Position numbers and translations under genes: made by a program. Positions 1 to 45,262 of a stretch of DNA of 64,000 nucleotides are shown one piece after another. The stretch is from positions 44,548-108,547 of the forward strand of contig CAWFOY010000001.1 in the NCBI GenBank assembly GCA_963817575.1, given 5' to 3'. The stretch is from an uncultured Gemmatimonadales bacterium (GTDB lineage: Bacteria; Gemmatimonadota; Gemmatimonadetes; Gemmatimonadales; GWC2-71-9). A model generated the notes under the pieces. The model saw only the letters and a program-made list of their open reading frames with translations. It did no database searches and was not told the DNA's origin. The first letter of the stretch is position 1. Every line of letters begins with the position of its first letter.

Positions 1-16
1 CATCTGCCCATCTATG
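1..16. repeat. Octamer array (CATCTGCC orientation), truncated by window edge
   Basis: The sequence reads catctgcc catctatg and sits directly upstream of the uvrA ATG at 25. It uses the same unit as the other arrays in the window. Confidence 0.7.
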
Positions 17-18
17 TT
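13..18 (+). promoter_or_regulatory. -10-like TANNNT (TATGTT) 6 nt before the uvrA ATG; possible leaderless promoter
   Basis: The context is TATGTT-tcccgc-ATG with no Shine-Dalgarno sequence. The same geometry recurs at four other genes in the window. Confidence 0.3.
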
Positions 19-24
19 TCCCGC

Positions 25-2826
25 ATGCCGCCTCCCGTCATCCGCATCGTCAACGCCCGCCAGAACAATCTGAAGGGCATCACCGTCGATCTCCCGAGGC
101 GCGCAGTGGTGGTGATCACCGGCCCCTCGGGATCGGGCAAGAGCTCGCTCGCCTTCGAGACCCTGTATGCCGAGGGGCAGCGCCGCTATATCGAATCGCT
201 CTCCACGTACGCCAAGCAGTTCCTGGACCGGATGCCGAAGCCGCTCGTGGACCGGCTCGACGGGATTCCGCCCGCCGTGGCGATCCAGCAGCACAATCCG
301 ATCGTCTCGAGCCGGTCCACCGTCGGCACGGCCACCGAGATCTACGACTACCTTCGCCTCCTGTGGGCGCGGGTCGGCACGACGTACTGCCGGGCCTGCG
401 GCGCCCTCGTCCGCCGCGACACGACCGATTCGGCGGCCGAGGCGACGCTGGCGCTCGGCGAGGGCCGGCTGCAGGTCACCTTTCCCCTCCCGGCTTCCGC
501 GCGACACAGCCACGCCGCGATCGTTGAGAACCTGCGGGCGCTGGGCTTCGTCCGGGTGCTCGCCGACGGCGAGGCGCTGCACCTGGAAGAATTGCCGGCC
601 AACACCGACCTGACTCGCGCGGGCGACCTGCTGGTTGTGGTCGATCGTCTGCGGGCCGAGCCCTCCGCCCGTGGCCGCCTGGTGGACGCGCTCGCAACCG
701 CGTTCCAGGAAGGCGAAGGCGTCGCGATCACGGTGCACGACGCCGGCCGGCTCCGGTTTACCGTGTTTCCAAGCTGCAGCCGTTGCGACACGCAGGCACG
801 CGCGCCGACACCAGCGTTGTTCTCCTTCAATAATCCGCGCGGCGCGTGCGCGGCTTGCAACGGGTTCGGCGCGGTGCTCGAGTACGATGAATCACTGGTC
901 GTCCCCGATCCGTCCCGGAGCCTGGCCGAGGGCGCCATCGACCCGTGGACCAAGCCGCGCTACGAGGCGCGGCGCCGCCTCCTGCTGGAAACAGCGAGGA
1001 AACTGGCTGTTGATCCCCATCGCGCGTGGTCCCGCCTCAAGGCCGCCGACCGCCACACGCTGCTCCACGGCAAGTCGGGCCGGTACCTCGGCATCTTCCC
1101 GTTCCTCAAGGGTCTGGAGGAGAAGCGATACAAGCAGTATATCCGCGTCTTCCTGCGGCAGTACCAGCTCGCGCTCACCTGTCCCACCTGCCTGGGCACC
1201 CGGCTCAATGAGCACGCGCTGGCCGTGCGGATCGGCGGCGAAGACATCGCCGCGGTCAGTGCCCGATCGGTGGACGCGGTGCACGAATGGCTCGGCCGTC
1301 TGGCCCTTACCGACACCGAGCGCACCATCGCCCAGTCCATTCTCGACCAGCTGGCAGCCCGGCTCGAGTATCTCCGCGACGTCGGCCTCGGCTACCTCAC
1401 CCTGAACCGTCAGGCGCGCACCCTCTCCGGCGGCGAGGCCCAGCGCATCGCCCTCGCCAATGCCCTCGGCTCCCGTCTGGTCGACTCGCTGTACGTGCTC
1501 GACGAGCCCTCGATCGGTCTCCACCCGAGGGACACCGACCGCCTGCTCGCGCTGCTCCGGCGGCTCCGGGACCTCGGCAATACGGTGGTCGTCGTGGAAC
1601 ACGATCTCGCCGCGGTCCAGCAGGCCGATTTCATGCTCGAGCTGGGGCCGGGCTCCGGCGAGCATGGCGGGCAGATCGTTCACGCCGGGCCGCTGGAAAC
1701 GGCGGGTGACTCCCTGACCGGGCAGTACCTGAGCGGACGCAAGCGGATCGCCGTTCCGAGCGTCCGGCGGCGGGCTGGGCCGCACTGGCTCCGGGTCCGT
1801 GGCGCCACCCTTCACAATCTGCGGGGCGTGGACGCGGACATTCCCCTCGGCACGCTGACGGCGGTCACGGGGGTCTCGGGCTCGGGCAAGAGCTCGCTGG
1901 TGCACGACGTGCTCTACCGCAATCTGGAGGCGAAGCTCCACGGTTCCCATTCCGCCAAGTCGCACCTCGGCGAGGCGGTGGGCGACGTGGCCTCTCTGAC
2001 CGGGGCCGGACTGCTCGACGATGTACTGCTGGTCGACCAGTCCCCCATCGGCAGGACGCCGCGTTCGAATCCGGTCACCTACGTGAAGGCGTTCGACGAG
2101 ATCCGCGAGCTCTTCGCGGCCCAGCCGCTCAGCCTGGCGCGTGGTTACACCGCCTCCACATTCTCGTTCAACCTGCCCGGCGGACGGTGTGAGGAGTGCG
2201 AGGGGGCGGGCCACGTTCAGGTGGAGATGGTGTTCCTGGCGGATGTGTACGTGCCATGCGAGACCTGCGGCGGCACCCGCTTCCGGCGCGAGGTGCTCGA
2301 TGTCCGGATAAACGGCATCTCAATCCATGATGTCCTGCAATGGACGGTCGAGGAGGCCATTACCCGGTTCCGGCACCAGCCGCGTCTCGGCGCCGCGCTC
2401 TGGCAGCTGCAGCAGGTCGGCCTCGGCTATCTGCGGCTGGGCCAGCCGGCCACGACGCTGTCGGGCGGCGAGGCCCAACGGCTGAAGATCGCCCGCGAGC
2501 TGGCCAGCGCAGGCCGTCGCGGTGGACGCAAGCTCTACATCCTCGATGAACCGACGACCGGACTTCACCTGGACGACGTGCGCGTGCTGCTCCAGGTGCT
2601 CGACCGCCTCGTGGACGCCGGCCATACCGTGCTCGTCATCGAGCATCACCCCGACGTCATCAAACGCGCGGACTGGGTGATCGACCTGGGGCCCGAGGCG
2701 GGGGACGGAGGAGGGAGAGTTGTTGCGCAAGGCACCCCGGAGCATGTTGCGGGCGTCGCGGAGTCCCACACCGGGCGCTACCTCGCGCCCCTGCTGAGTG
2801 AATTGGATGCCATGGTGACCGCATGA
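25..2826 (+). CDS. uvrA: Excinuclease ABC subunit A (UvrA family)
   Basis: 933-aa ORF with two ABC ATPase halves (Walker [13 protein letters not shown] and [11 protein letters not shown]; LSGGEAQR signature twice). Cys-rich zinc modules are present (CRACG, CAACNG, CPTCLG, CEECEG..CETCGG). The protein is collinear with E. coli UvrA. Confidence 0.93.
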
Positions 2827-3452: not shown

Positions 3453-5491
3453 AGCAGATCGGTCGCTGCCGCGATCGCCTCGTGGGTTCCGGTGAGCGCC
3501 AGCACGTCGCCGTTGCGCAGGTGTTCCCGCGCGGACGGAAAGACCATCCGCTCGTCACCCCGCCTCAGCCCGACCACTGACGCCCCGGTCAGGCCGCGCA
3601 GGTTGAGCTCCGCCAGGCTCTGCCCCGATCCGGGGCTCCCCGCCCCGATCGTGACCTGAGTGAGATCGCCGATGCCGGGCAGGATCTTTCGCACCTCTTC
3701 CAGCATGCCGTCCTCACCCGTCGTCCGGCGATTCTGCCGCGCCAGCGCCTCGACGATCATCGTCGCCCCGGCCCGTACGTGGCCCTGCAGGTCGCGCGCG
3801 GAGCGCCAGAATGCGAGACCAAGCAGGAGCAGCAGCACGCCGAGGAACGCGGGGCCGCCGTAGGCCGGCAGGAACGGAAGCGTCACCGCGACGAGGGGGG
3901 CGCCGACGATCAGCACGATGCCGATCTGAATGCTGAGCCGGAGCGCGCGGCGCGGGGCGAGACCGAGGTCGGCCTTGCCGGGATTCGGCAGGGGCACGGC
4001 CATCGTGGAGAGCAGGGTTCCCAGGGCACGCGCGGCGCGGGCGATGCCATACAGGAGCGGAAACAGCACGGCGAGGGCCAGGGCCACGGCGCCGAGACGG
4101 ATCGCGGGCGGATCGAATCCGGTCAGCGTCGCGAGGTGCGCGGTGCCGCGGGTCACCGCCAGGGTCGAGCCCGCCACGATGGTCGCGAGCAGGACCGCGT
4201 CGAGGACGATGAACCGGGTGAGGCGGCGGATCCGGGCAGCCGGGGTGTTCGCTCGGGCGGCAAGCCGCGCCGATTCGACCCACGAGCCGTAGAGCGTGGC
4301 ATAGGTCTGCAACGCCCGGGGGAGCCGCCGGTCGGCGTAGTTCGCGACGGCGCTCGACTGCCCTACCAGCCAGTGCGTCGAGAGGGCCGTAATGGCCGCG
4401 ACCGCGACCGCCACGGGCGGAATGAAATCGCGTACGGCTCCGCTGGCGACACCGATCCCGGCGATGATGAAGGAGAACTCGCCGATCTGCGCGAGCGAGA
4501 GCCCCGCGCGCACGGCGGTGCGCGTTCCGAGGCCGGCGAGGAAGGTTCCGGCGGTGACGCCGGCGAACTTGCCGAGCAGGACTACAATCGTGAGAACAAC
4601 GATCGCGCCCCAGTGAGCCGGAATCGCGCCGGGCTCGATGGACATGCCGACCGCGACGAAGAAAATCGCGGCGAACATGTCGCGCAGCGGCCGCACCAGC
4701 GGTTCGACCTGGCGGCCCGCCCCGCCCTCCGCCACGAGCGCGCCGGCGAGGAATGCCCCGAGGGCGACCGAGTAGCCGGCAGCATGAGCCAGGAGGGCCA
4801 GGCCGAAGCAGAGCCCGACGCTTGCCACCAGCGTCGTCTCGTCCCGCCGGAGCCGCACCACCCAGCGAATCCAGCGGGGGACAATGAAGAGCCCCACGAC
4901 CATGACCCCCGCCAGGAAGGCCACCAGCCGAGTCAGCGTGCCGGCCACAACGTCGGCGGAGGGTCCCACGCCGGTCGCAACGGCGGTGAGCACCGCGATG
5001 AAGAGGATCGCGACGAGGTCCTCCACGACCAGCACCCCGTACACCACCTCGGCCAGCTTTCCTGCGATGTGCCGCTCGTGAAAGACCTTGGCAATGATCA
5101 TCGTGCTCGAAATCGACACGATCGCGCCGGCGAAGAGACTCTCCAGCCGGGTCCAGCCCATGAGCTGCCCGGCGATGAAGCCGAGTCCGAGGCACAGCCC
5201 CACCTCGATGGCCACAATGAGGCCGGCCGTGGAGGCGAGCCGCCCGAGCTTCCGCACCGTGAAGCCGAGCCCGAGGGAGAACATCAGCAGGATGACGCCG
5301 AGCTCGGAGAGCGTGCGCACGGTTTCGACGTCGGCCTGGACTGGCGGAAAGTCGTGCGGGCCGAGGGCGATCCCCGCCACCAGATAGCCCAGGACCGGGG
5401 GCAGCCGCAGGCGCTGGAAGAGGACGCTCGTGACGGCGGCGATGCCGAGGACGAGGGCCAGATTGGTCAGGAAGGCGGCGGCGGAGTCCAT
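3398..5491 (-). CDS. Monovalent cation:proton antiporter (CPA2/Kef-type) with C-terminal RCK/TrkA-C domain
   Basis: 697-aa ORF with a polytopic N-terminus (LVLGIAAVTSVLFQRLRLPPVLGYLVAGIALGP) typical of KefB/YbaL. The C-terminal TrkA-C-like segment reads GQSLAELNLRGLTGASVVGLRRGDERMVFP. The 3' end overlaps the glycosylase gene by 55 nt in convergent orientation. Confidence 0.85.
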   Translation of the reverse strand: MDSAAAFLTNLALVLGIAAVTSVLFQRLRLPPVLGYLVAGIALGPHDFPPVQADVETVRTLSELGVILLMFSLGLGFTVRKLGRLASTAGLIVAIEVGLCLGLGFIAGQLMGWTRLESLFAGAIVSISSTMIIAKVFHERHIAGKLAEVVYGVLVVEDLVAILFIAVLTAVATGVGPSADVVAGTLTRLVAFLAGVMVVGLFIVPRWIRWVVRLRRDETTLVASVGLCFGLALLAHAAGYSVALGAFLAGALVAEGGAGRQVEPLVRPLRDMFAAIFFVAVGMSIEPGAIPAHWGAIVVLTIVVLLGKFAGVTAGTFLAGLGTRTAVRAGLSLAQIGEFSFIIAGIGVASGAVRDFIPPVAVAVAAITALSTHWLVGQSSAVANYADRRLPRALQTYATLYGSWVESARLAARANTPAARIRRLTRFIVLDAVLLATIVAGSTLAVTRGTAHLATLTGFDPPAIRLGAVALALAVLFPLLYGIARAARALGTLLSTMAVPLPNPGKADLGLAPRRALRLSIQIGIVLIVGAPLVAVTLPFLPAYGGPAFLGVLLLLLGLAFWRSARDLQGHVRAGATMIVEALARQNRRTTGEDGMLEEVRKILPGIGDLTQVTIGAGSPGSGQSLAELNLRGLTGASVVGLRRGDERMVFPSAREHLRNGDVLALTGTHEAIAAATDLLQGGDSSERHKYQDATVR

Positions 5492-5497
5492 GGAGGG

Positions 5498-5503
5498 AAG
5501 ATA
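5498..5503 (-). promoter_or_regulatory. -10-like TANNNT (TATCTT) 6 nt before the antiporter ATG
   Basis: The minus strand reads catctgcc catctgcc cgtctgtc caTATCTTccctccATG. No SD sequence is present. Confidence 0.3.
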
Positions 5504-5504
5504 T

Positions 5505-5536
5505 GGACAGACGGGCAGATGGGCAGATGGGCGGGA
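5505..5536. repeat. Octamer array, about 4 units (GGACAGAC GGGCAGAT GGGCAGAT GGGCGGGA)
   Basis: Read directly from the sequence. It lies between the divergent antiporter and C-N hydrolase genes. Confidence 0.85.
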
Positions 5537-5606
5537 GAACGTTGGCGCCGGGCCCAGGCACCACTATGATGGGAGGAGGTGGCGCACCCGCACTCGGGAG
5601 CTCGGC

Positions 5607-7210: not shown

Positions 7211-7249
7211 TTAACAGTCAGCTGCTCTAACCAACTGAGCTACTCGGGA
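7176..7249 (-). tRNA. tRNA-Asn (anticodon GTT)
   Basis: I folded it by hand. The acceptor stem is TCCCGAG/CTCGGGA, the anticodon arm is GCTGA-CTGTTAA-TCAGC, and the T-loop is GGTTCGAGTCC. CCA is not encoded. Confidence 0.9.
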
Positions 7250-7440
7250 AGGTGCTGCTACGCGGTGCAATCTTAATCAGCTGGCAGAAGGCGGGGAAGC
7301 GGGAAAGCGGGGACTTCCCTGCCTTGCCCCTTCCCGCCCGTTTTCCACCCTACCCACGCTCCTATCCACCCGTTTTCCGCTCTTTCCACATCCGGGTGCC
7401 CGAAAATCGACCCTCACGGTCGATGTGACAGGTCACTCGA

Positions 7441-7680
7441 TTGATGTCCCAGTCCCACAACATGTGTGACCCGAAACACAAAGCTATCACACTCGTAATA
7501 AATGAGTTATGCCACAGATGAGTGCCTGCTCACATAAATTTCATTGCGAGTAAGTGCTTACATAAGTTCCCGGGTCGGTCCAGGTGCCAAATTGGCGCAA
7601 TTCCGGACCTCAAGAACGCATCTAAGTCGTTGTTGAAAAAGATGTTACACTTCAGGCGCTTCCCATCTGCCTCCCGCGTT
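7441..7680. other. Low-GC non-coding island upstream of holB
   Basis: My hand count gives 114 G+C in 240 nt, or 47.5%, against about 70% in adjacent coding DNA. It contains the palindromes GTGACagGTCAC (just upstream, near 7430) and GCCAAaTTGGC (near 7586), and has no credible ORF. Confidence 0.6.
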
Positions 7681-7681
7681 T

Positions 7682-7687
7682 TACCTT
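7682..7687 (+). promoter_or_regulatory. -10-like TANNNT (TACCTT) 6 nt before the holB ATG
   Basis: The context is cccatctgcctcccgcgttt TACCTT cgtacc ATG. One CATCTGCC unit sits at 7664-7671, and there is no SD sequence. Confidence 0.25.
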
Positions 7688-7693
7688 CGTACC

Positions 7694-8785
7694 ATGACAC
7701 TGAAGCCCCTGGTGGGCCACGCCGACTCCCGGTCCCGTGTATCACGGGCCATCCGAGAAGGCCGGCTTCCCCAGGTGCTGCTGCTGACCGGGCCCGCAGG
7801 CGTCGGGAAGCAACGCCTGGCGCTCTGGATCGCGCAGTTGCTGTACTGCGAGCGGCCCGGCCTGGAGCCGTGCGGGGACTGTCGAGGCTGTCGGCTGGTA
7901 CTGGGGCTCGGGCATCCGGACCTCCATTGGATCGTCCCGATTCCCCGCCCCAAGGCGGCGGAGCCGGACAAGCAGGTCGAGGAGGCGGGCGAGGCCATCG
8001 CGGAAGCGCTGGCGGAGCGGCGGGCAGCGCCGCTGTACTTGCCTCCCGATGGGCTCTCGGCGCACGGGATGGCCACGGCGCGGCTGATCGCGCGACGGGC
8101 TGCCCTCACGCCGGTCGAAGGCAAGCGGAAGGTGTTCGTCATCGGCGAGGCCGAACGGCTCGTTCCGCAGGAGGCGAATCCGGAGGCGGCGAACGCCCTC
8201 CTCAAGCTTCTCGAGGAGCCGCCCGGTGATACGACGTTCGTCCTCACCACTGCGGACCCGGCGCGCGTGCTGCCGACCATCCGGTCTCGCGCGGTGCCGC
8301 TCAGGCTCGGGCGATTGACCGACGCTGAGGTGTCGGGGTTCCTGGCGGCGCACCTGGAGCCGCCACCGCCGCCCGCCGAGTTGGGACGTATCGTGACTCG
8401 GGCGGCCGGCTCCATCGGCGCGGCGCTCACACAGGGAGACGAGGCCCAGGCCGCGCAGGTGGCCGCGAACGCCTATCTGGAGTCGGTGTTGAGCGGACCC
8501 GCCGCGCGATTCGAACGGGCGCTGGCGCAGGGACCTTGGCAGGCGCGGGGTGATTTCACGGGGATGCTCGATGCGCTGGCCGAGACCCTGGACGACGCGG
8601 CTCGCGGTGCGGTGGGAGTCGCCGAGCGGCGCGCGGTCCCGGCGGCGCTCCGGGAGCGCACCTCGCCGGAACGCCTGCTTAAGGCGCTTGGCCTGGTCGC
8701 CGAGGCCCGGGAGGCAGCGCAGGGAAACGTGAACCCGCAGCTGCTGCTGGCGAGTCTGGGCGAGGATCTGGCGGAGGCCCTGTGA
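7694..8785 (+). CDS. holB: DNA polymerase III subunit delta-prime
   Basis: 363-aa ORF with an AAA+ clamp-loader N-terminus ([15 protein letters not shown]). It also has the zinc module CGDCRGC and the SRC-type motif TIRSRAV. Confidence 0.85.
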
Positions 8786-9982: not shown

Positions 9983-10044
9983 CAGATGGGCAGATGGGCA
10001 GATGGGCAGTCGAAGGTGCTGACCGCCTGTCCGACTGTCCGACG
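9983..10044. repeat. Composite repeat: (CAGATGGG)x3 + core TCGAAGGTGCTGAC + (CGCCTGTC/CGACTGTC) array
   Basis: Read directly from the sequence. It lies between the convergent SLT and ctaA genes. The same core follows arrays at 16079-16093 and 22986-22998. Confidence 0.85.
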
Positions 10045-10046: not shown

Positions 10047-11111
10047 TCAAGAGACGACGGCTGGCGCCCTGCGCCGGCCGTTCGTCGTTTGGAGCCCGTG
10101 GAGCGCCAGCACCGCGGCCGTGAGCACCAGAACCGCGCCCGCCTGGTGGAGCGCCGCGATGGGAATCGGCACGGCGAGCAGCAGGGTCGTCACGCCCAGG
10201 CCCGCCTGGGCCGCGGCGAGAAGTGCCAGTGCCCCCAGTGCCCGTCGCGTCGACGGGGGGGCGCTCCGCCGCCCACCCGTCCACAGCGCGAAGGCTCCCA
10301 GCAGCACCCCAAGCCCCAGCAGGCGGTGATGGAATTGCACCGCCCCCGGATTCTCGAACAGGTTGAGGTACCACGGGGTGAGCGCCGTGTACCCGGGTGG
10401 AATCACCCGGCCGCCCATCAGAGGGAACGTGTTCCACGCCTTCCCGGCGTCGAGCCCAGCCACGAAGGCACCCGAGAGAACCGTCAGGAACACGTAGAGA
10501 GCGAACCCTGCTACAACGCGGCGCAGCGCAGATTCCGCCTGTCCGCCTGACCGTCCGTCCGCCTGTCCGACGCCAAGCAGATCCGCCGCAGTCCAGACCG
10601 TGATGACGTAGATGACCAGCGCCAGTGCCAGGTGGGCGGCGAGGCGGTACTGGCTCACGTCCGTGCGCACGGTGAGGCCGCTCTCCACCATGTACCACCC
10701 CATCGCGCCCTGCAGCGCGAGCAGGACGAGGAGCAGCGCGAGGCGGCGCGCCAGAGGGCCGCTCACCATCCGCCTGGCAAGGAACGCGAGGAACGGCACC
10801 GCGAAGGCGAGCCCGACCAGCCGCGCCCAGAGCCGATGCACGTACTCGACCAGATAGATGCGCTTGAATCCGGCCAGGGTCATGCCGGGATTGTGAAGCT
10901 GATACTCCGGGATCTGGCGATACCGGGAGAACTCTGCCTCCCAATCAGCGGCGGAGAGGGGCGGAAGCGTTCCGGAGACGGGCTTCCATTCGGTGATGGA
11001 GAGGCCGGATTCCGTGAGTCGGGTGATGCCGCCGATGACGACAGTCAGGAGCACCAGAGCGGCCCAGACAGCGAGCCAGAGGCCGATGGTGCGGCGGTGG
11101 GTGGGATGCAT
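10047..11111 (-). CDS. ctaA: Heme A synthase (COX15/CtaA family)
   Basis: 354-aa polytopic ORF. The N-terminus GGITRLTESGLSITEWKPVSGTLPPLSAADWEAEFSRYRQIPEY is diagnostic of the COX15 type. Confidence 0.9.
   Translation of the reverse strand: MHPTHRRTIGLWLAVWAALVLLTVVIGGITRLTESGLSITEWKPVSGTLPPLSAADWEAEFSRYRQIPEYQLHNPGMTLAGFKRIYLVEYVHRLWARLVGLAFAVPFLAFLARRMVSGPLARRLALLLVLLALQGAMGWYMVESGLTVRTDVSQYRLAAHLALALVIYVITVWTAADLLGVGQADGRSGGQAESALRRVVAGFALYVFLTVLSGAFVAGLDAGKAWNTFPLMGGRVIPPGYTALTPWYLNLFENPGAVQFHHRLLGLGVLLGAFALWTGGRRSAPPSTRRALGALALLAAAQAGLGVTTLLLAVPIPIAALHQAGAVLVLTAAVLALHGLQTTNGRRRAPAVVS
10535..10572. repeat. Octamer array (CCGCCTGT type, about 4.5 units) inside the ctaA CDS
   Basis: The sequence ccgcctgt ccgcctga ccgtccgt ccgcctgt ccgacg encodes the loop GVGQADGRSGGQAE on the minus strand. 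Confidence 0.75.
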
Positions 11112-11116
11112 GCAGG

Positions 11117-11122
11117 AAAATA
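11117..11122 (-). promoter_or_regulatory. -10-like TANNNT (TATTTT) 5 nt before the ctaA ATG
   Basis: The minus strand reads ctgacccg ctgacccg ctgacccg ctg TATTTT cctgc ATG. No SD sequence is present. Confidence 0.3.
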
Positions 11123-11149
11123 CAGCGGGTCAGCGGGTCAGCGGGTCAG
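11123..11149. repeat. Octamer array (CAGCGGGT)x3
   Basis: Read directly from the sequence. There are four GGG tracts on the plus strand, and the array lies immediately upstream of the ctaA start. Confidence 0.85.
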
Positions 11150-11151: not shown

Positions 11152-11191
11152 CCGAGAAAAAGGTGGGGCCCGAATTCATCCAGGCCCCACC
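11152..11191 (-). terminator. Intrinsic terminator downstream of the LysM transglycosylase gene
   Basis: The minus strand has a 9-bp GC stem (GGTGGGGCC / GGCCCCACC) and a 12-nt loop, followed by TTTTTCTC. Confidence 0.75.
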
Positions 11192-11221
11192 CGCATTCCA
11201 TTCGTCCGCCTGACCGCCGGT

Positions 11222-16000: not shown

Positions 16001-16080
16001 GGGCGGATGGGCAGATGGGCAGATGGGCAGATGGGCAGATGGGCAGATGGGCAGATGGGCAGATGGGCAGATGGGCAGCC
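16001..16080. repeat. Octamer array, 10 units (GGGCGGAT, 8x GGGCAGAT, GGGCAGCC)
   Basis: Read directly from the sequence; it contains 8 perfect consecutive copies. It begins 41 nt upstream of the tRNA-Lys 5' end and is followed by the core CGAAGGTACTGAC. Confidence 0.95.
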
Positions 16081-16107
16081 GAAGGTACTGACAGCCCGTA
16101 TGCCGTT

Positions 16108-16712: not shown

Positions 16713-16821
16713 CGGGGGACAGGTTAGGAAGTTGGGAAGTCAGGCAGTTGGGATGTCAGGAGGTCGGGAAGCTAGAGGGCAGGTCGTCCCACCTGTCCGC
16801 CTGTCCGCCTGTCTGCCCGCC
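16713..16821. repeat. Two adjacent 8-bp-period arrays (GGGAAGTY-type, then CCTGTCCG x3)
   Basis: The first array is aggttagg aagttggg aagtcagg cagttggg atgtcagg aggtcggg. The second is cctgtccg cctgtccg cctgtctg cccgcc, which abuts the rnhB stop. Confidence 0.8.
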
Positions 16822-17450
16822 TACAGTAATCCCAGCTGAGCTACCGGCCCGAAGCTCCTGCGGTGATGCGGGGTGGGGCCCCGCTCGGCGAGGGCGAGCA
16901 GGTGGCCCTCGCTGCCGTAGCCCTTGTTGGAATCCCAGGCGTAGCCGGGATGGCGGAGCGCGAGGCGCCGCATCAGCCGGTCCCGTACCGTCTTGGCGAT
17001 GATGCCCGCAGCCGAGACGCTCTGGCAGTGGGAATCGCCCTCGACCAGCGCCTCGTGGAGGAAGCCGATTTCCGGCATCTGCAGGCCGTCGAGGAGCAGG
17101 CGGGGAAGCGGGTCAGCGGGACAGCGGGTCAGGATGCGGACAACAGCCCTTCGCATGGCCAGCGCGGTGGCCACCCGGATGTTGAGCCGGTCAATCTCGG
17201 CCACGGAGGCGGCCCCAAGGGCCAACGCCAGTGCCGCCCGGCGGATCGTGACCGCAAGGGCTTCCCGCTGCGGGGCGGAGAGCGTCTTGCTGTCGCGGAG
17301 CCCGGCGAGGCGGTGGGCGCCGGCCGGAAACACGACGGCCGCGGCAACCACTGGACCCGCCAGTGGGCCGCGGCCCGCTTCGTCCACTCCGATGAGCAGC
17401 CGTCCCTCCGCCCAGACGGCCGCCTCACGGGACAGCGTCGGACGGCGCAC
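16821..17450 (-). CDS. rnhB: Ribonuclease HII
   Basis: The motifs IGVDEAGRGPLAGPVVAAAV, DSKTLS and SAAGIIAKTVRD are present. I chose GTG 17450 as the start because the track ORF (16821-18122) runs on through rplS and trmD in another frame. Confidence 0.88.
   Translation of the reverse strand: MRRPTLSREAAVWAEGRLLIGVDEAGRGPLAGPVVAAAVVFPAGAHRLAGLRDSKTLSAPQREALAVTIRRAALALALGAASVAEIDRLNIRVATALAMRRAVVRILTRCPADPLPRLLLDGLQMPEIGFLHEALVEGDSHCQSVSAAGIIAKTVRDRLMRRLALRHPGYAWDSNKGYGSEGHLLALAERGPTPHHRRSFGPVAQLGLL
17107..17133. repeat. Octamer array (AGCGGGTC type, 3 units) inside the rnhB CDS
   Basis: The sequence agcgggtc agcgggac agcgggtc encodes LTRCPADPL on the minus strand. Confidence 0.65.
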
Positions 17451-18565: not shown

Positions 18566-19088
18566 CCATCAGCCCTTCCGGCGGCGCGATGACCAGCCGC
18601 CTGGCATCCCGGTCGACCTCCAGCACGAATTCCTTTCTGTACGGCAGCAGGAACTCCCGCTTCGGGCCCTGGACCTCGATGGCCACGCCGGCCGGCAGCT
18701 CGTACACATCGGTGACGAGTCCGATCGCGGTGCCATCCTCGAGCCGCACGGCGAACCCGGCGAGCTCGTGCAGGTAGACTTCCCCTTCCGCCAGTGGAGT
18801 CGCCTGTTCCGCCGGCATCCCGAAGAAGCCGCCCCGGAATCCTTCGAGACCGTCGCGGTGGTCCACTCCGCGGAACTTCAGCAGCCACTCGCGGTGATAG
18901 CCCCGGCTCCGCTCGATTTCCAGCGGCCCGCCGGTCACTTCACCCGCCAGGTCGAGCACCAGCAGCGCGCGTCCGGGCGCGAACACCGACTCGGGCGTGT
19001 CGGTGAGGGGGTAAATCGTGCACTCCCCCTTGAGCCCGTGCGGCTTGCGGAACCGCCCGACCACCAGGTGGCGGGCGCCCCCGGACAT
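18558..19088 (-). CDS. rimM: 16S rRNA processing protein RimM
   Basis: The N-terminus reads [14 protein letters not shown], and the gene sits in the conserved rpsP-rimM-trmD order. Confidence 0.88.
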
Positions 19089-19090
19089 CG

Positions 19091-19354
19091 TCAGGCCGTC
19101 GCGGCCTTGAACACGCCGGCCTTCTTGAGCAGTGACTGCACCGTCTCGGACGGCGTCGCGCCCTTCGCCAGCCAGGCCTTCGCCTTCACGGCGTCCACGG
19201 TCACCTGGGCCTTTTCAGACTTGGCCTTGGGATCGTAGGTGCCGATGATGTCGATGAACCGGCCATCGCGCGGGGCCTCCTTGTCGGCCACCACGATGCG
19301 GTACAGCGGGAGCTTCTTCCGCCCGACGCGGCGGAGGCGAATGCGAGTTGCCAT
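19091..19354 (-). CDS. rpsP: 30S ribosomal protein S16
   Basis: The sequence begins MATRIRLRRVGRKKLPLYRIVVAD. An SD sequence (AGGAAGAGAC) lies upstream of the ATG. Confidence 0.95.
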   Translation of the reverse strand: MATRIRLRRVGRKKLPLYRIVVADKEAPRDGRFIDIIGTYDPKAKSEKAQVTVDAVKAKAWLAKGATPSETVQSLLKKAGVFKAATA

Positions 19355-19377
19355 GTCTCTTCCTGTTGTGTGCGTGC

Positions 19378-20709: not shown

Positions 20710-20738
20710 AAGCCAAGGAACTTAAACGAGATACGACC

Positions 20739-20838
20739 GATGGGCAAGGCAGATGGGCAGATGGGCAGATGGGCAGTGGGCAGATGGGCAGACGGGCAGA
20801 TGGGCAGATGGGCAGATGGGCAGATCGGCGGGTCGGCG
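20739..20838. repeat. Octamer array, about 12 units of GGGCAGAT with one 7-nt unit
   Basis: Read directly from the sequence. It lies between the ffh start and the 3' end of the four-helix-bundle gene. The orientation is G-rich on the plus strand. Confidence 0.95.
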
Positions 20839-20886
20839 AGGTGAGAGCGGAGCCCTCGCTGCGTCAACCGATGCACGCTGCGGGCG

Positions 20887-21225: not shown

Positions 21226-21370
21226 AGACCTGATGGCATGCCTGCCACGCCCGGAGGCTCTCGTAGCGTTTCGTGTCCAGCGGCGATCCGACCGGGGTGG
21301 CCATCGCTTGAATCTCGGAGGCTCTGCCAGCCGTCAGATAACCGATTCGCCGCGAGCGGTAATGCGGTTA

Positions 21371-21409
21371 CCGCCCATCTGCCCATCCGCCCATCCGCCC
21401 ATCTATACT
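21371..21409. repeat. Octamer array (CCGCCCAT/CTGCCCAT x4), inverted relative to 20739-20838
   Basis: Read directly from the sequence. It ends in catcTATACT, 5 nt before ATG 21415. Confidence 0.9.
21404..21409 (+). promoter_or_regulatory. -10-like TATACT 5 nt before the DUF445 gene ATG
   Basis: The context is TATACT-ccgcc-ATG with no SD sequence. This is the closest match to TATAAT among the five cases. Confidence 0.35.
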
Positions 21410-21414
21410 CCGCC

Positions 21415-22977
21415 ATGGATTCTCCCACCCTGATCTCCGCCCTCCTCACCATCGCCGTAGGCGCTGTCGCGGGCGGCATCACGAACGCGGTGGCGATCTG
21501 GATGCTGTTCCATCCCTATGAATTGCGCGGGATCGGGCCGTTCCGGATCCAGGGCGCGATCCCCAAGAACAAGGCGCGGCTGGCCAGGAGCATCGGGAAG
21601 ACCGTTGGAGAGAAGCTCCTCACCGCGGAGGACCTGTCGCGGCGGCTCGCCGCGCCGGAGGTGCGGGCGGGATTCGACGCCGCGCTCTCCGGATTCCTCG
21701 ATGACCTCCTCGAACAGGAGCGCGGCCCCCTCCTCGACCAGCTGCCTCCCGACCTCGCAGCCCAGATCGAGGCCGGAGTGGACCGGCTGGCGGCGCGGGC
21801 AACGGAGCATCTCGCCGAGTACGCCGCCACGCCGGCATTCGCCGCAACGGTCGCAACCTGGCTCGACCGGTTGCGTACGGAGATCGGCGATCGCCCGATC
21901 GGGGAGCTGTTGACGCCGGACCGCCGCGCGTCACTTCAGGCGACGGTGGAGAGCTGGCTGCACGACCTCACCGAGGGGCCGGAGCTGGAAGCGGCGGTTC
22001 GTCATTTTGTCGAGATGCAGCTCGAGCGGCTTGGCAAGGACGATCGCCCGCTGATCGACCGGCTGCCGATCGGGCTGGTGGGCACGGTCGAGCAGTCCAT
22101 CCACGACTACCTGCCGGTGGCGATCGAGCGCATCGGCGCAGTGCTCGCCGATCCCGAGGCCAAGGGGAAGATCCATCAGGCTCTCCGGACCACCTTTGAC
22201 CGCTCCGTCCGCGATTTGCTGCTCCACGAGCGCCTGCTCGCCCGCATCGTGGTGACCGACCAGACCTTCACCCGCCTCCTGGACGGCCTCGAGCGCGAGG
22301 GGTTCGAGCGATTCGCCGAGTCGCTCTCGGCCCCGGACATGCGCGCCCAGTTGACCCGCGCCGTCAACGACGGGCTGGTGCACTTCCTCCGCATTCCGCT
22401 TAGCGAGCGGCTGGCGCGCATGGGTCCCGAGAAGCGCGCCGCCCTGGCCGGCACCCTGGGCGACTGGGGTATCGCGATCGTCCGGGACGAAACGACCCGG
22501 CGGGTCGCCGGCCGCGCGGTGGACCGCCTGCTTGCCGCGACGGAGCGTCGGACGTGGAACGACCTCCTCGGCAACGTGCCGCCGGAGCGCATTGCGAAAC
22601 TCCTCGCCGAGGCGCTCGCCGCGGACCGAGGGCGCCGGTGGGTCGAGGAGGCCGTGCGAAGCACGGCTCACGCGGTGCTCGCGCGCCCGGTCGGGCGTCC
22701 CTCGCGCTGGCTGGGCGCCGAGACGACCGGAGCCGTTCGGACGAGCATCATCCGCGCGGCATGGGAGTGGACCCACCGGCAGATCCCCCGCGTGGTGGAG
22801 CAATTCAACGTACAGGAGATGGTGGAGCACAAGGTGCTTGGCTTCTCCACCGAGCGGATGGAGCAGATCATCCGGGGCGTCACGCAGCGGGAGCTGACGC
22901 TGATCGTGCAGCTGGGGTACGTGCTCGGAGCGATTGTCGGCGTGGTGGCGTTCGGAGTGGGGTTGTTGTTCAGGTAG
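21415..22977 (+). CDS. DUF445 family membrane-anchored protein
   Basis: The N-terminal GGITNAVAIWMLFHP motif and a long helical body are present. I prefer ATG 21415 because the track start at 21238 reads through the repeat array. Confidence 0.75.
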   Translation: MDSPTLISALLTIAVGAVAGGITNAVAIWMLFHPYELRGIGPFRIQGAIPKNKARLARSIGKTVGEKLLTAEDLSRRLAAPEVRAGFDAALSGFLDDLLEQERGPLLDQLPPDLAAQIEAGVDRLAARATEHLAEYAATPAFAATVATWLDRLRTEIGDRPIGELLTPDRRASLQATVESWLHDLTEGPELEAAVRHFVEMQLERLGKDDRPLIDRLPIGLVGTVEQSIHDYLPVAIERIGAVLADPEAKGKIHQALRTTFDRSVRDLLLHERLLARIVVTDQTFTRLLDGLEREGFERFAESLSAPDMRAQLTRAVNDGLVHFLRIPLSERLARMGPEKRAALAGTLGDWGIAIVRDETTRRVAGRAVDRLLAATERRTWNDLLGNVPPERIAKLLAEALAADRGRRWVEEAVRSTAHAVLARPVGRPSRWLGAETTGAVRTSIIRAAWEWTHRQIPRVVEQFNVQEMVEHKVLGFSTERMEQIIRGVTQRELTLIVQLGYVLGAIVGVVAFGVGLLFR

Positions 22978-22985
22978 GATGGCCA

Positions 22986-23014
22986 GCCGAAGCTACTGTC
23001 CGCCTGTCCGCCTC
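22986..23014. repeat. Core GCCGAAGCTACTG + (TCCGCCTG)x2
   Basis: This is the third copy of the conserved core with an attached CGCCTGTC-type array, just after the DUF445 stop. Confidence 0.7.
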
Positions 23015-26965: not shown

Positions 26966-27802
26966 CGCGCGCGCGACGATCCCTTCGATCAGGTCGCCGA
27001 GCTGGCGTCCCACGCGGTTGGCAATCTCGATGACCTCGCCGTGGTGGAGGGCCTGGGTCGTGACGCCCGCGGCGGGGTTCGTGATGGTCGACACGGCCAG
27101 GCACCTGATGTCGAGCGCACGCGCCACGATCACCTCGGGAACGGTGCTCATCCCAACAGCGTCTGCGCCGAGCCGCTCCAGCATCCGTATCTCCGCCGGG
27201 GTTTCGTAACTCGGCCCCAGCACCGCGGCATAGACGCCCTCCTCGAGCCGGATGCCCAACTCGCCGGCTACGGCCGTCGCGTGCGTGCGCAGCTCCCGAT
27301 CGTACGCGGCGGACATGTCGGGAAACCGTGTCTCGCCCGGGGCAACGGGGCCGATCAGCGGGTTCCGGAACATGAAATTGATGTGATCGGTGATCAGCAT
27401 CAGGGTGCCGGCGGAGAAGGCGCGCCGGATCCCGCCCGCGGCGTTCGTGAGCACGAGGGAGTTCACCCCAATGCGGGCGAAGAGACGCACCGGGAGCGCG
27501 GCTGTCGCCGCGGAATGCCCCTCGTAGAGGTGGAACCTTCCGCTCTGCACCATCACCTCGCGTCCTGCGAGCCGCCCCGCCACCAGCTCCCCCCGATGAC
27601 CTTCCACTGTGGGCAGCGGGAACCCGGGAATCTCGGCGTACGGAATGACCACCGCGCTCTGGATTCTTTCGGTGAAGCGGCCGAGCCCGGACCCGAGCAC
27701 GATCGCGATCTCGGGTTTCCGCCCGCCGAGGCGCTCACGCACCGCCGTCGCGGCCTCGGTGATCGTGCTGCCCATCTGCCCATCCGCCCATCCGGCCGTC
27801 AC
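26963..27802 (-). CDS. Purine nucleoside phosphorylase (trimeric PNP family)
   Basis: The motifs IVLGSGLG, GRFHLYEG, TNAAGG and MSTVPEV are present. The GTG 27802 start overlaps the nupC stop (GTGA). An alternative ATG at 27775 lies inside the octamer array. Confidence 0.9.
   Translation of the reverse strand: MTAGWADGQMGSTITEAATAVRERLGGRKPEIAIVLGSGLGRFTERIQSAVVIPYAEIPGFPLPTVEGHRGELVAGRLAGREVMVQSGRFHLYEGHSAATAALPVRLFARIGVNSLVLTNAAGGIRRAFSAGTLMLITDHINFMFRNPLIGPVAPGETRFPDMSAAYDRELRTHATAVAGELGIRLEEGVYAAVLGPSYETPAEIRMLERLGADAVGMSTVPEVIVARALDIRCLAVSTITNPAAGVTTQALHHGEVIEIANRVGRQLGDLIEGIVARA
27768..27797. repeat. Octamer array (CTGCCCAT/CCGCCCAT) at the 5' end of the PNP gene
   Basis: If GTG 27802 is the start, the array encodes AGWADGQMG of the N-terminus. 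Confidence 0.85.
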
Positions 27803-45202: not shown

Positions 45203-45262
45203 GGTCAGTCGGATGGTCGGTAAGTCGGACGGTCCGACTGCCCGACGGTCCGACGGTCCGTC
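45203..45262. repeat. 8-bp-period array (GGTCAGTC..GGACGGTC..CGACGGTC, about 7 units)
   Basis: Read directly from the sequence. It abuts the ALDH stop codon at 45263-45265. Confidence 0.85.

What the first reader, a model, noticed from the sequence alone, without database searches (positions are those of the whole stretch)
11112..11149. C-rich octamer arrays sit directly upstream of TANNNT-N5-6-ATG at five genes, suggesting repeat-embedded leaderless promoters
Five genes share one geometry on their sense strand: an octamer array, then a -10-like hexamer, then 5-6 nt, then ATG, with no Shine-Dalgarno. For ctaA it is (ctgacccg)x3 ctg TATTTT cctgc ATG at 11111. For uvrA it is catctgcc catc TATGTT tcccgc ATG at 25. 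For the antiporter it is (catctgcc)x2 cgtctgtc ca TATCTT ccctcc ATG at 5491. For the DUF445 gene it is (catccgcc)n catc TATACT ccgcc ATG at 21415. For holB it is one catctgcc unit ..TACCTT cgtacc ATG at 7694. In Actinobacteria and Deinococcus, TANNNT 6-7 nt before the start codon is the hallmark of leaderless mRNAs. Here the spacer and -35 region would consist of the repeat itself. Other genes in the window, such as rpsP and the ORFs at 14930 and 23129, use clear SD sequences, so the pattern is not universal.
Basis: partly seen in the sequence, partly recalled or inferred. Interest (0 to 1): 0.7.

Follow-up and report, generated by a model that had tools for sequence, protein, structure and literature searches.

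The report
Leaderless promoters flanked by polar octamer repeats
Five genes of an uncultured Gemmatimonadales bacterium most likely start their mRNA at the ATG from a lone -10 box, and the 8-base repeats next to that box belong to a fast-changing repeat class that lines both ends of genes in one fixed orientation, so they are not part of the promoter.

Summary
All five geometries are in the sequence as described. TANNNT-N5/6-ATG occurs 6 times in the window, which equals the shuffle expectation. However, 5 of the 6 sit exactly on the starts of long, Pfam-supported genes.

The hexamer and its distance to ATG are conserved in orthologues of ctaA, holB, uvrA and the antiporter, while the surrounding sequence changes. 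This supports -35-less, leaderless promoters.

The arrays are a separate matter.
- The window comes from a Gemmatimonadales MAG with many period-8 arrays of a few unit families (9 at period 8, 0 at periods 5-7 and 10-12).
- Arrays abut stop codons about as often as -10 boxes. They also abut -35-like boxes (ffh, tRNA-Lys) and an SD, and they occur in protein loops.
- Their C-rich strand reads into the adjacent gene in 17 of 18 cases. Paired arrays are always ordered [G-rich][C-rich].
- Array-free relatives keep the same -10/ATG geometry for holB and uvrA.
- Close relatives change copy number or swap the unit family at the same promoter.
- holB has a single unit-like sequence, not an array.

The arrays are therefore polar gene-boundary repeats. 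They are an octamer counterpart of the quadruplex-type heptamer repeats of Xanthomonas and Nostoc, which show the same polarity and have no known function.

The parts
1..12 (+). Truncated CATCTGCC array upstream of uvrA, cut by the window edge. In relative L159 the full form is cccatctg x2.75, with a G-rich partner array 55 nt further upstream.
13..27 (+). uvrA -10-like TATGTT (13-18), spacer tcccgc, ATG (25-27).
   Evidence: TATGTT is kept in L159 and TATCTT-N6-ATG in array-free L157.
5504..5532 (-). CATCTGCC-family array (about 3.5 units) upstream of the CPA2 antiporter. It carries four G3 tracts on the template strand.
   Evidence: L159 has 4 units and L156 has (CTTCCYRA)x9 at this site.
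5489..5503 (-). Antiporter -10-like TATCTT (5503-5498), spacer ccctcc, ATG (5491-5489).
7664..7671 (+). Single catctgcc unit upstream of holB. It is not an array and aligns to non-repeat sequence in relatives.
7682..7696 (+). holB -10-like TACCTT, spacer cgtacc, ATG.
   Evidence: Conserved in L152, L159, L157 and L158.
11153..11192 (-). Intrinsic terminator of the upstream LysM/SLT gene: 14-bp stem with 9 GC pairs, then TTTTTCTC. It ends just before the ctaA array.
11123..11149 (-). CTGACCCG x3.4 array abutting the ctaA -10. With the flanking GGG it gives four G3 tracts on the template strand.
11109..11122 (-). ctaA -10-like TATTTT (11122-11117), spacer cctgc, ATG (11111-11109).
   Evidence: Orthologues.
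21371..21403 (+). CATCTGCC/CATCCGCC array (4.1 units) abutting the DUF445 -10.
   Evidence: Identical in L048.
21404..21417 (+). DUF445 -10-like TATACT, spacer ccgcc, ATG.
20748..20829 (-). CATCTGCC x10 array upstream of ffh. It abuts a -35-like TTGCCC (20747-20742), followed by a 17-nt spacer, TAAGTT (20724-20719), 9 nt, and ATG at 20709.
   Evidence: About 4 copies in L048.
16001..16078 (-). CATCTGCC x9.8 array upstream of tRNA-Lys. It abuts TTGAAT (16000-15995), followed by a 17-nt spacer, AACCTT, 11 nt, and the tRNA.
9983..10043 (.). Two arrays between the convergent SLT and ctaA genes. GGGCAGAT x3.4 begins 3 nt after the SLT stop. CTGTCCGA x3.1 ends 3 nt before the ctaA stop. The order on the top strand is [G-rich][C-rich].
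16726..16817 (.). A purine-rich array (16726-16771) toward the PAP2 start, and CTGTCCGC x3 (16792-16817) ending 3 nt before the rnhB stop codon.
27768..27794 (+). CATCYGCC array 4 nt from the stop of the nucleoside transporter gene, overlapping the putative N-terminus of PNP.
45203..45260 (.). Pair of arrays. One is C-rich on the minus strand and lies directly upstream of the SD (GGAG) and ATG at 45189 of a 50-aa ORF. The other is C-rich on the plus strand and ends 2 nt before the ALDH stop codon.
10534..10569 (-). Degenerate octamer array inside ctaA, in the loop after TVWTAADLLG. The same loop carries arrays of other units in L075, L153 and L155.
46111..46205 (-). Inverted [G][C] array pair forming the linker of a two-domain aldehyde dehydrogenase ORF.
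17107..17132 (-). CTGACCCG-type array inside the RNase HII coding region.
22996..23013 (+). CTGTCCGC x2.2, 18 nt after the DUF445 stop. This is the one window array that breaks the polarity rule. L048 has (TGCCCATG)x11 at this site, and that array obeys the rule.
7287..7311 (-). CCGCTTTC x3 array, 13 nt upstream of TAAGAT and tRNA-Asn.

Best explanation
Two separate things coincide at these sites.

(1) Promoters. The hexamers are -10 boxes of -35-less promoters whose transcripts start at or within a base of the A of ATG, giving leaderless mRNAs. This geometry is older than the repeats and does not depend on them.

(2) Repeats. The octamer arrays belong to a lineage-specific class of long simple-sequence repeats. 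The period is 8, occasionally 9. There are a few unit families: CATCTGCC, CTGACCCG, CTGTCCGC/A, CTTCCCAA, TTCCGTC and GACCGTCC. They occupy otherwise unconstrained intergenic DNA and stop where constraint begins. That boundary is the -10 box at leaderless genes, a -35 box or SD where one exists, and the stop codon at 3' ends.

The arrays are strictly polar. The C-rich strand reads 5'->3' into the adjacent gene, so the G-rich strand is the template upstream of a start and the sense strand after a stop. They turn over fast, by unit gain or loss and by replacement with another unit family.

Because these promoters need no -35 box, an array can sit flush against the -10 box without harm.

Inferred, not shown: the polarity reflects selection at gene boundaries. 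The most plausible effect is transcriptional insulation.
- Same-family [G][C] pairs fold into long hairpins that end in the T-rich -10 box and look like terminators for the upstream gene.
- Arrays with four G3 tracts could form quadruplexes.
- Any transcript entering a gene from outside would carry a C-rich, G-poor stretch.
For: Leaderless promoters.
- Placement and spacing statistics.
- Conservation of the hexamer and its distance to ATG amid unalignable flanks for ctaA, holB, uvrA and the antiporter.
- A terminator immediately upstream of the ctaA array.
- Experimental precedent that a lone TANNNT next to an ORF suffices as a promoter in Deinococcus-Thermus, where most such genes lack a -35 box (PMC12340547). 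TSS maps in M. tuberculosis and D. deserti show the same (PMC3898074, PMC4007540).

Arrays as a general polar boundary repeat.
- 9 strict period-8 arrays in the window, against 0 for periods 5-7 and 10-12.
- 10 of 13 arrays lie in the 7% of the window that is intergenic (p about 1e-9).
- Polarity holds in 17 of 18 cases in the curated sample and in 29 of 33 by my reading of the table. Binomial p is 7e-5 and 5e-6.
- Pairs are always ordered [G][C], in all 13 pairs I counted across.
- Five window arrays lie 2-7 nt from stop codons. Arrays also abut -35-like hexamers and an SD, and they sit in CDS loops.

Dispensable and labile.
- L157 and L158 (22 kb each) have no arrays but keep the holB and uvrA geometry. 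L154 lacks the ctaA array.
- Copy number differs between close relatives: 10 versus about 4 at ffh, and 3 versus 4 at the antiporter.
- Unit families are swapped at the same site: the antiporter promoter in L156 at 95% aa identity, the ctaA promoter in L152, L153 and L155, and the DUF445 3' end in L048.

Known class. Rehm et al. 2015 (PMC4692102) report the same polarity rule.

Insulation.
- The [G][C] hairpins in L152 and L153 fold at dG -62 and -71 kcal/mol, with z scores of -5.8 and -7.1.
- Ten of the 14 canonical quadruplex motifs in the window are arrays.
- Terminator-like sites number 18 observed against 27 expected in the array lineage, and 27 against 13 in array-free relatives.
Against: - No transcription start site data exist for this lineage, so leaderless initiation rests on geometry and conservation only.
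- Four of five ctaA orthologues carry some array flush with the -10 box, and the unit differs among them (the two nearest the -10 in L153 and L155 are alike). This persistence could instead mean the array is selected for at that position.
- A pure filler model does not explain the polarity. It also does not explain why a few unit families recur at many unlinked loci.
- Not all families have G3 tracts, and quadruplex motifs are not enriched overall (14 against 10 +/- 3).
- The [G][C] pair at 9983-10043 does not fold better than shuffles (z 0.24).
- Orthologous arrays in several genomes are not fully independent observations.
- The relatives are metagenome contigs, and L157 and L158 show fragmented genes.
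- The terminator comparison uses a crude scan.
Confidence: 0.7

Rival explanations
1. The arrays are functional upstream halves of the promoters. The C-rich non-template and G-rich template repeat would replace the -35 box and spacer. It could do so by binding sigma region 4 or the alpha-CTD, or by forming a template-strand quadruplex that favours opening. On this view selection keeps some array at these promoters.
For: Arrays end within 0-5 nt of the hexamer at about 11 of about 19 leaderless-type starts (my reading). Four of five ctaA orthologues keep an array there even though the unit sequence has been replaced among them. The ctaA, antiporter and DUF445 arrays each give exactly four G3 tracts on the template strand. 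The terminator leaves no other promoter DNA for ctaA. Rehm et al. note that the effect of a quadruplex in E. coli promoters depends on strand and position.
Against: The same arrays, with the same polarity, abut stop codons, -35 boxes and an SD. Array-free relatives keep the -10/ATG geometry. No unit gives a TTGNNN hexamer at 16-19 nt. Families such as TTCCGTC and GACCGTCC have only GG tracts. The phase of the unit relative to the -10 box varies.
Confidence: 0.15
2. The genes are not leaderless. Transcription would start upstream, the C-rich arrays would be part of a 5' UTR, and translation would start without an SD. The T-rich hexamer would serve another purpose, such as the U-tract of a terminator for the upstream gene.
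For: In Xanthomonas most such repeats are transcribed (PMC4692102). Only about 22% SD usage is tabulated for Gemmatimonadetes (PMC10783764). In L152 and L153 the hexamer directly follows a long hairpin, like a terminator tail.
Against: The strict 5-8 nt distance of an A2/T6-invariant hexamer from ATG is conserved in divergent and tandem contexts alike, including divergent gene pairs with no upstream co-directional gene (antiporter, uvrA). A separate strong terminator precedes the ctaA array. The placement enrichment is the signature of leaderless genes.
Confidence: 0.1
3. The arrays are contingency loci. Changes in repeat number would switch or tune expression of the downstream gene (phase variation).
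For: Copy number differs between genomes that are 93-97% identical.
Against: The genes are housekeeping genes (uvrA, ctaA, ffh, tRNAs). Adding or removing an 8-nt unit leaves the 20+ nt next to the -10 box unchanged, and there is no -35 box whose spacing could change. Half of the arrays lie at 3' ends. Rehm et al. reached the same negative conclusion for the heptamer class.
Confidence: 0.05
4. The arrays are dispersed by a copying or insertion mechanism aimed at gene boundaries (mobile cassettes). On this view they do not arise by local slippage.
For: A few unit families recur at many unlinked loci. Family replacement occurs at orthologous sites between near-identical genomes. Some arrays share a distal flank, CCGAAGGTNCTGAC.
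Against: No transposase, terminal inverted repeat or target duplication was seen. Shared flanks occur at only about 4 of 33 arrays. Copy-number steps of one unit fit slippage.
Confidence: 0.1

Closest known systems
G-rich quadruplex-type heptamer SSRs of Xanthomonas (GGGAATC) and Nostoc (GGGGAYT), Rehm et al. 2015, PMC4692102
   Same: They are tandem 6-9 nt units with one G-rich strand, and they are strongly intergenic. They lie close to the ORF, with the G-rich strand antisense upstream of starts and sense after stops. They also occur as inverted pairs. Length and sequence vary extensively between close relatives, and they flank housekeeping genes. Their function is unknown.
   Different: Here the unit is 8 nt, several unrelated unit families coexist, and some families have only GG tracts. 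The phylum is different (Gemmatimonadota). The arrays sit flush against the -10 boxes of leaderless genes and against stop codons (0-11 nt). Repeats between divergent genes are not obviously avoided here. Quadruplex formation was not tested.
-10-only leaderless promoters of Deinococcus-Thermus and Actinobacteria (PMC12340547, PMC3898074, PMC4007540, PMC3160421)
   Same: A TANNNT hexamer lies a few nt before the ATG or GTG, there is no SD, and usually no -35 box. The hexamer alone suffices as a promoter in D. radiodurans.
   Different: In the searched full-text library I found no study of leaderless promoters in Gemmatimonadota, and no paper combining 'Gemmatimon' with 'TANNNT'. TSS data are lacking. 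The DNA upstream of the -10 box is tandem repeat here.
Paired tandem octa- and heptanucleotide repeats of Geobacter metallireducens, annotated as 'predicted global regulator binding sites' (PMC2700814)
   Same: They are intergenic tandem 7-8 nt units, mostly in pairs on opposite strands, with multicopy families.
   Different: The unit sequences differ. The polarity relative to genes was not described in the passages read. No link to promoters or leaderless genes was made.
Phase-variable promoter SSRs of host-adapted pathogens (for example Haemophilus, PMC12721329)
   Same: They are tandem repeats in promoter regions with variable copy number.
   Different: Those have 1-7 nt units that alter -35/-10 spacing or UTR structure at contingency genes. 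Here there is no -35 box, the genes are housekeeping genes, and equal numbers of arrays lie at 3' ends.

Membership tests
Leaderless, -10-only promoter | [quoted passage not shown] | tested here: met
   All five sites have N5 or N6.
Leaderless, -10-only promoter | No Shine-Dalgarno sequence between the hexamer and the start codon | tested here: met
   The spacers are tcccgc, ccctcc, cgtacc, cctgc and ccgcc.
Leaderless, -10-only promoter | The hexamer is positionally enriched at true gene starts | tested here: met
   5 of 6 matches lie on gene starts, against about 0.4 expected. Spacer 5-6 occurs at 6 of 71 first starts, against about 0.13% background.
Leaderless, -10-only promoter | Hexamer and spacing are conserved in orthologues | tested here: met
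   ctaA in 5 genomes, holB in 5, uvrA in 3, and antiporter in 3 (one of them CATCTT).
Leaderless, -10-only promoter | The transcription start lies at or within 1-2 nt of the start codon | not testable with these tools
   No transcriptome data are available.
Polar G-rich long SSRs (Rehm 2015 class) | Head-to-tail units of 6-9 nt, over-represented relative to other periods | tested here: met
   9 arrays at period 8, 1 at period 9, and 0 at periods 5-7 and 10-12.
Polar G-rich long SSRs (Rehm 2015 class) | Strong bias toward non-coding DNA | tested here: met
   10 of 13 arrays lie in the 7% of the window that is intergenic (p about 1e-9).
Polar G-rich long SSRs (Rehm 2015 class) | The G-rich strand is antisense within 50 bp upstream of an ORF, or sense within 50 bp after the stop | tested here: met
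   17 of 18 and 29 of 33 (my reading). Pairs are always ordered [G][C].
Polar G-rich long SSRs (Rehm 2015 class) | One G3+ tract per unit and a preference for four tracts (quadruplex potential) | tested here: inconclusive
   The CATCTGCC and CTGACCCG families meet this, and the ctaA, antiporter and DUF445 arrays have exactly four tracts. Other families have GG only. Some arrays have three tracts. Overall quadruplex-motif count is 14 against 10 +/- 3 expected.
Polar G-rich long SSRs (Rehm 2015 class) | Length and sequence vary between close relatives at the same intergenic site | tested here: met
Polar G-rich long SSRs (Rehm 2015 class) | Quadruplex or i-motif folding in vitro | not testable with these tools
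   This needs CD spectroscopy or polymerase-stop assays.
Phase-variable promoter SSR | The repeat lies between -35 and -10 (or in the UTR or ORF), so that copy number changes expression | tested here: not met
   There is no -35 box at the four array-bearing sites, and a unit change leaves the -10-proximal sequence unchanged. At ffh and tRNA-Lys the array lies upstream of the -35 box.
Phase-variable promoter SSR | Association with contingency or surface genes | tested here: not met
   The genes are uvrA, ctaA, ffh, a CPA2 antiporter and tRNAs.
REP/BIME or MITE | A conserved imperfect palindrome or terminal inverted repeats with a target duplication | tested here: inconclusive
   Same-family [G][C] pairs fold well and mixed pairs do not. 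A shared flank occurs at about 4 of 33 arrays. No target duplications were looked for systematically.

The most novel reading that the evidence does not exclude
The arrays are selected, orientation-dependent gene-boundary modules. They would act as one-way transcriptional insulators placed flush with the first functional base at both ends of genes. Their activity would depend on strand composition and 8-nt periodicity, not on sequence, so unit families can be swapped freely. In this lineage they would partly take over the role of intrinsic terminators and would shield leaderless genes, which cannot be translated from read-through transcripts, from incoming transcription.
Probability: 0.2. Interest if true: 0.75.

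Novelty: new variant of a known kind. Interest (0 to 1): 0.5.

Why it matters
Promoter architecture and translation initiation in Gemmatimonadota, a major soil phylum, are essentially uncharacterised. These data point to -10-only, leaderless expression of core genes such as uvrA, holB and ctaA.

The repeats extend a puzzling class of polar G/C-skewed long SSRs from Xanthomonas and Nostoc to a third phylum and to an 8-nt period. Three features sharpen the open question of what these repeats do:
- They abut -10 boxes and stop codons exactly.
- Unit families are swapped between near-identical genomes.
- There is a hint of an inverse relation with intrinsic terminators.

Practically, gene callers will mis-start such genes. 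Examples are the longer ORF from 21238 for DUF445 and the PNP start inside an array.

Tried and rejected
- Rfam (gathering threshold on the whole window, E-value threshold on 7240-7700) found only the two tRNAs. The arrays match no known RNA family.
- I looked for a -35 box supplied by the repeat, checking hexamers at 16-19 nt upstream. For CATCTGCC these are GCCCAT, TGCCCA and CTGCCC. For CTGACCCG, CTGACC falls at 13 or 21 nt. Rejected.
- I first read TACAGT after the array at 16792-16817 as a promoter. It overlaps the rnhB stop codon, so that array is a 3' array.
- ctaA relatives from the metagenome scan (45-69% aa, 784 kb) were too distant. They had no arrays except in L075, and ctaA there has longer leaders or sits in an operon.
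- The replication-strand explanation for orientation was rejected, because both orientations alternate along the window.
- The transcription-strand mutational bias was rejected as the sole cause, because arrays inside coding regions have no fixed orientation.
- FtsK KOPS (GGGNAGGG) and Chi-like octamers were considered from memory. They were rejected because those motifs are dispersed, skewed with replication and not tandem.
- The exact look-up of the ctaA protein returned only a short Logan contig without DNA.
- My first gene map mis-called 43305-44795(-). The real gene there is a plus-strand Ppx-like ORF ending at 45017.
Full report
**Observation.** The five geometries are in the sequence exactly as described.
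- ctaA, minus strand: (ctgacccg)x3 ctg, TATTTT, cctgc, ATG at 11111.
- uvrA: catctgcc catc, TATGTT, tcccgc, ATG at 25.
- Antiporter, minus strand: (catctgcc)x2 cgtctgtc ca, TATCTT, ccctcc, ATG at 5491.
- DUF445: (catcYgcc)x4 catc, TATACT, ccgcc, ATG at 21415.
- holB: one catctgcc, 10 nt, TACCTT, cgtacc, ATG at 7694.

Pfam confirms UvrA, a CPA2 Na/H exchanger, DNA pol III delta', COX15/CtaA and DUF445. A codon-usage score that ignores start codons places the onset of coding signal at 37, 5491, 11102 and 21427, at or just after four of the proposed ATGs. For holB the signal begins later, at 7772.

**Is it more than chance?** The bare pattern is not enriched. TANNNT-N5-ATG has 3 matches against 2.9 +/- 1.8 expected, and the N6 version has 3 against 3.0 +/- 1.8. 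Placement is what is non-random. Five of the six matches fall on the starts of real genes, where about 0.4 would be expected among about 50 starts (p about 7e-5). In the window plus ten unrelated loci of a sister MAG, TANNNT at spacer 5-6 precedes 6 of 71 first start codons, against about 0.13% per position at other in-frame starts. A list of all TANNNT-N4-8-start sites in good ORFs gave about 19 leaderless-type starts. About 11 of them have a period 7-9 array directly upstream (my reading).

**Origin.** A scan of 185,579 species genomes for (CATCTGCC)x3 gave 71 loci. Fourteen come from one Gemmatimonadales MAG (DASTCF01, SMAG_U785) and six from a Gemmatimonadota MAG (JBGPJS01). Locus L048 of DASTCF01 is 93-97% identical to window 18998-26966. 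The exact CtaA protein sits on a 158-kb NCBI/ENA contig, and cluster members are named Gemmatimonadales bacterium.

**The hexamers behave as -10 boxes of leaderless genes.** Syntenic contigs with CtaA at 91, 87, 85 and 83% identity (L152, L154, L153, L155) align only at the hexamer and the ATG:
- window: ...ctgacccgctg TATTTT cctgc ATG
- L154: ...cccacccactg TATTTT cttctcca ATG
- L152: ...gccttttccgtc TAGCTT tccacc ATG
- L153: ...cgtcttttccgtc TAGTTT tcctcc ATG
- L155: ...cgtcttttccgtc TAGTTT tccccc ATG

Other genes show the same conservation.
- holB keeps TACCTT or TAGCTT with N6 in the window, L152, L159, L157 and L158. The last two are relatives whose antiporter is only 69% identical.
- uvrA keeps TATGTT-N6-ATG in L159 and TATCTT-N6-ATG in L157.
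- The antiporter keeps TATCTT-N6 in L159 and has CATCTT-N6 in L156.
- A at position 2 and T at position 6 are invariant throughout.

With N6 the A of ATG falls 7 nt after the hexamer, which is the canonical +1 distance (established knowledge). With N5 it falls one base closer.

On the minus strand, a 14-bp, 9-GC hairpin followed by TTTTTCTC (11192-11153) terminates the upstream LysM/SLT gene and ends just before the ctaA array. Any ctaA promoter must therefore lie in the roughly 40 nt that consist of the array plus the hexamer.

There is experimental precedent. In D. radiodurans a lone TANNNT next to an ORF acts as the promoter of leaderless genes, and most such genes lack a -35 box (PMC12340547). 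TSS maps in M. tuberculosis and D. deserti show the same geometry (PMC3898074, PMC4007540). Transcription start sites could not be tested here.

**The arrays are not a promoter feature.**
- The window holds about 20 period-8 arrays. With one strict criterion there are 9 at period 8, 1 at period 9 and none at periods 5, 6, 7, 10, 11 or 12.
- Ten of 13 arrays in the annotated part of the window lie in the 7% of it that is intergenic.
- Contexts in the window:
  - Four abut a -10 box (uvrA, antiporter, ctaA, DUF445).
  - Two abut a -35-like hexamer. At ffh: array, TTGCCC, 17 nt, TAAGTT, 9 nt, ATG. At tRNA-Lys: array, TTGAAT, 17 nt, AACCTT, 11 nt, tRNA.
  - One lies 13 nt from the TAAGAT of tRNA-Asn.
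  - One is followed directly by GGAG and the ATG at 45189 of a 50-aa ORF.
  - Five lie 2-7 nt from stop codons (SLT, ctaA, rnhB, nucleoside transporter, ALDH).
- Arrays also sit inside coding regions. One is in a CtaA loop, which also carries arrays of other units in L075, L153 and L155. Another is in RNase HII. A third forms the linker of a two-domain aldehyde dehydrogenase.
- holB has only one unit. It aligns to ccaatagcca and ccaattccac in L157 and L158, so it is not a repeat.

**Polarity.** In intergenic arrays the C-rich strand read 5'->3' points at the nearer gene boundary, whether that boundary is a start or a stop.
- This holds in 17 of 18 arrays in the curated window and synteny sample. 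By my reading of the table it holds in 29 of 33 arrays in the wider Gemmatimonadota sample. The binomial p values are 7e-5 and 5e-6.
- The sense strand is therefore C-rich upstream of starts and G-rich after stops.
- When two arrays share an intergenic region, the top strand always reads [G-rich][C-rich]. This held in all 13 pairs I counted.
- Both orientations alternate along the window, so replication direction is not the cause.
- Arrays inside coding regions show no fixed orientation, which argues against a purely transcription-linked mutational bias.

**Turnover and dispensability.**
- At ffh there are 10 units in the window and about 4 in L048.
- At the antiporter there are 3 units in the window and 4 in L159. 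L156, with 95% protein identity, has (CTTCCYRA)x9 at that site.
- At ctaA there are three distinct unit types among five orthologues (L153 and L155 share the -10-proximal unit), and no array in L154.
- At the DUF445 3' end the window has CTGTCCGC x2 and L048 has (TGCCCATG)x11.
- L157 and L158, each 22 kb and syntenic, have no period-8 arrays at all. They nevertheless keep the -10/ATG geometry of holB and uvrA.
- Among 784 kb of more distant ctaA loci, only L075 is array-rich, and its units are again different.

The promoter geometry is therefore older than the arrays and independent of them.

**Comparison with known systems.** Rehm et al. 2015 (PMC4692102) described G-rich heptamer SSRs in Xanthomonas and Nostoc.
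- They are intergenic and variable between close relatives.
[quoted passage not shown] This is the polarity found here.
- Four units are preferred, and quadruplexes form in vitro.
- They are not linked to contingency genes, and their function is unknown.

The present arrays fit that class on period range, non-coding bias, polarity and variability. They differ in several ways. The period is 8 nt. Several unit families coexist. The arrays abut -10 boxes and stop codons exactly. Some families lack G3 tracts.

On quadruplex potential, canonical motifs number 14 in the window against 10 +/- 3 in Markov simulations. Ten of the 14 are arrays, and the ctaA, antiporter and DUF445 arrays each provide exactly four G3 tracts on the template strand.

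Geobacter metallireducens has paired tandem octa- and heptanucleotide repeats that were annotated as putative regulator sites (PMC2700814). In the searched full-text library I found no study of Gemmatimonadota promoters, leaderless genes or such repeats.

**Mechanism.**
- Shown: the geometry, its conservation, the polarity, the turnover and the dispensability of the arrays.
- Inferred: these promoters need only the -10 box, so repeats that fill unconstrained intergenic DNA can extend right up to it. At promoters with a -35 box they stop there, and at 3' ends they stop at the stop codon.
- The polarity, and the recurrence of a few unit families at unlinked loci, are not explained by neutral filling.
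- My preferred functional reading is insulation, held at modest confidence. Three observations bear on it.
  - In L152 and L153 the G-rich array after the LysM stop and the C-rich array before the ctaA -10 box fold into hairpins of -62 and -71 kcal/mol (z -5.8 and -7.1). Each ends at TAGCTTT or TAGTTTT and resembles a terminator. The window has a classical terminator at that site.
  - The mixed-family pair at 9983-10043 does not fold (z 0.24).
  - Terminator-like sites are at or below expectation in the array lineage: 5 against 7.1, 5 against 6.6, 6 against 7.0, and 2 against 6.1. They are about twofold enriched in array-free L157 and L158: 12 against 6.4 and 15 against 6.7. This is a crude scan and only a hint.

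**Verdict.** Leaderless -10-only promoters are likely, and the repeat does occupy the -35 and spacer positions. However, the repeat is a general, polar, fast-evolving gene-boundary SSR and not a promoter element. This is a new variant of a known kind.

Noticed in passing
window 45263-47665 (-), arrays at 46111-46133 and 46185-46205: An 800-aa ORF carries two aldehyde dehydrogenase domains joined by a linker (..DGTADGQMGSG...IPRPIRPSAHPS..) that is encoded by an inverted [G][C] pair of octamer arrays. The pair folds at -57 kcal/mol (z -3.7). It looks like a former intergenic region of two tandem genes that has been fused in frame.
   Followed up: partly
window 10534-10569 (ctaA codons about 181-193); L075 7157-7230; L153 3781-3807; L155 662-684: The same CtaA loop, after TVWTAADLLG, carries octamer arrays of different units and lengths in four genomes. 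This is a coding-region hot spot tolerated between the two four-helix halves of the protein.
   Followed up: partly
window 7623-7649, within the non-coding stretch 7320-7690: The 27-nt block TAAGTCgTTGTTGAAAAAGATGTTACAC is almost invariant (one variable position) in four genomes, down to relatives with 69% antiporter identity. It lies 31 nt upstream of the holB -10 box. The roughly 370-nt AT-richer spacer between tRNA-Asn and holB has several more conserved blocks and no Rfam match.
   Followed up: partly
window 27768-27802: The G-rich strand of CATCTGCC arrays contains an ATG every 8 nt. The PNP gene may start at an ATG inside the array that follows the stop of the upstream nucleoside transporter gene. 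The annotated-style GTG at 27802 would translate the array.
   Followed up: no
L010, L033, L021, L007 (Terriglobia and Acidobacteriota MAGs); L009, L017, L038, L054, L057 (Cyanobacteria): CATCTGCC-like arrays (GATCTGCC, CACCTGCC, TACCTGCC), together with other period-7 and period-8 arrays, cluster in some Acidobacteriota MAGs. Cyanobacterial loci combine them with heptamer arrays. The phenomenon is wider than Gemmatimonadota.
   Followed up: partly
window 10010-10023 and 16079-16092; L035 127; L040 1509: The motif CCGAAGGTNCTGAC directly follows the gene-distal end of four (GGGCAGAT)n arrays. In the window there are 4 matches against 0.8 expected, of which 2 are clearly genuine. Three JBGPJS01 loci share another distal flank. 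This hints that some arrays were copied together with their flanks.
   Followed up: partly
window 5542-5606 (+): The divergent neighbour of the antiporter, a CN hydrolase, has a conventional TTGGCG-17-TATGAT promoter-like site and a GGGAGGAGG SD-like stretch. Classical and leaderless architectures therefore sit back to back in one 115-nt intergenic region.
   Followed up: partly
L159 10984-11147 versus L157 15467-15517: The divergent uvrA/LPG-synthase spacer is 164 nt in the array-bearing genome, with two arrays and 55 nt between them. It is 51 nt in the array-free relative. The arrays are net additions to very compact intergenic regions.
   Followed up: no
window 20887-21225 (-): A free-standing gene for a 23S rRNA intervening-sequence protein family member (four-helix bundle, PF05635) lies between the ffh and DUF445 arrays.
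   Followed up: no
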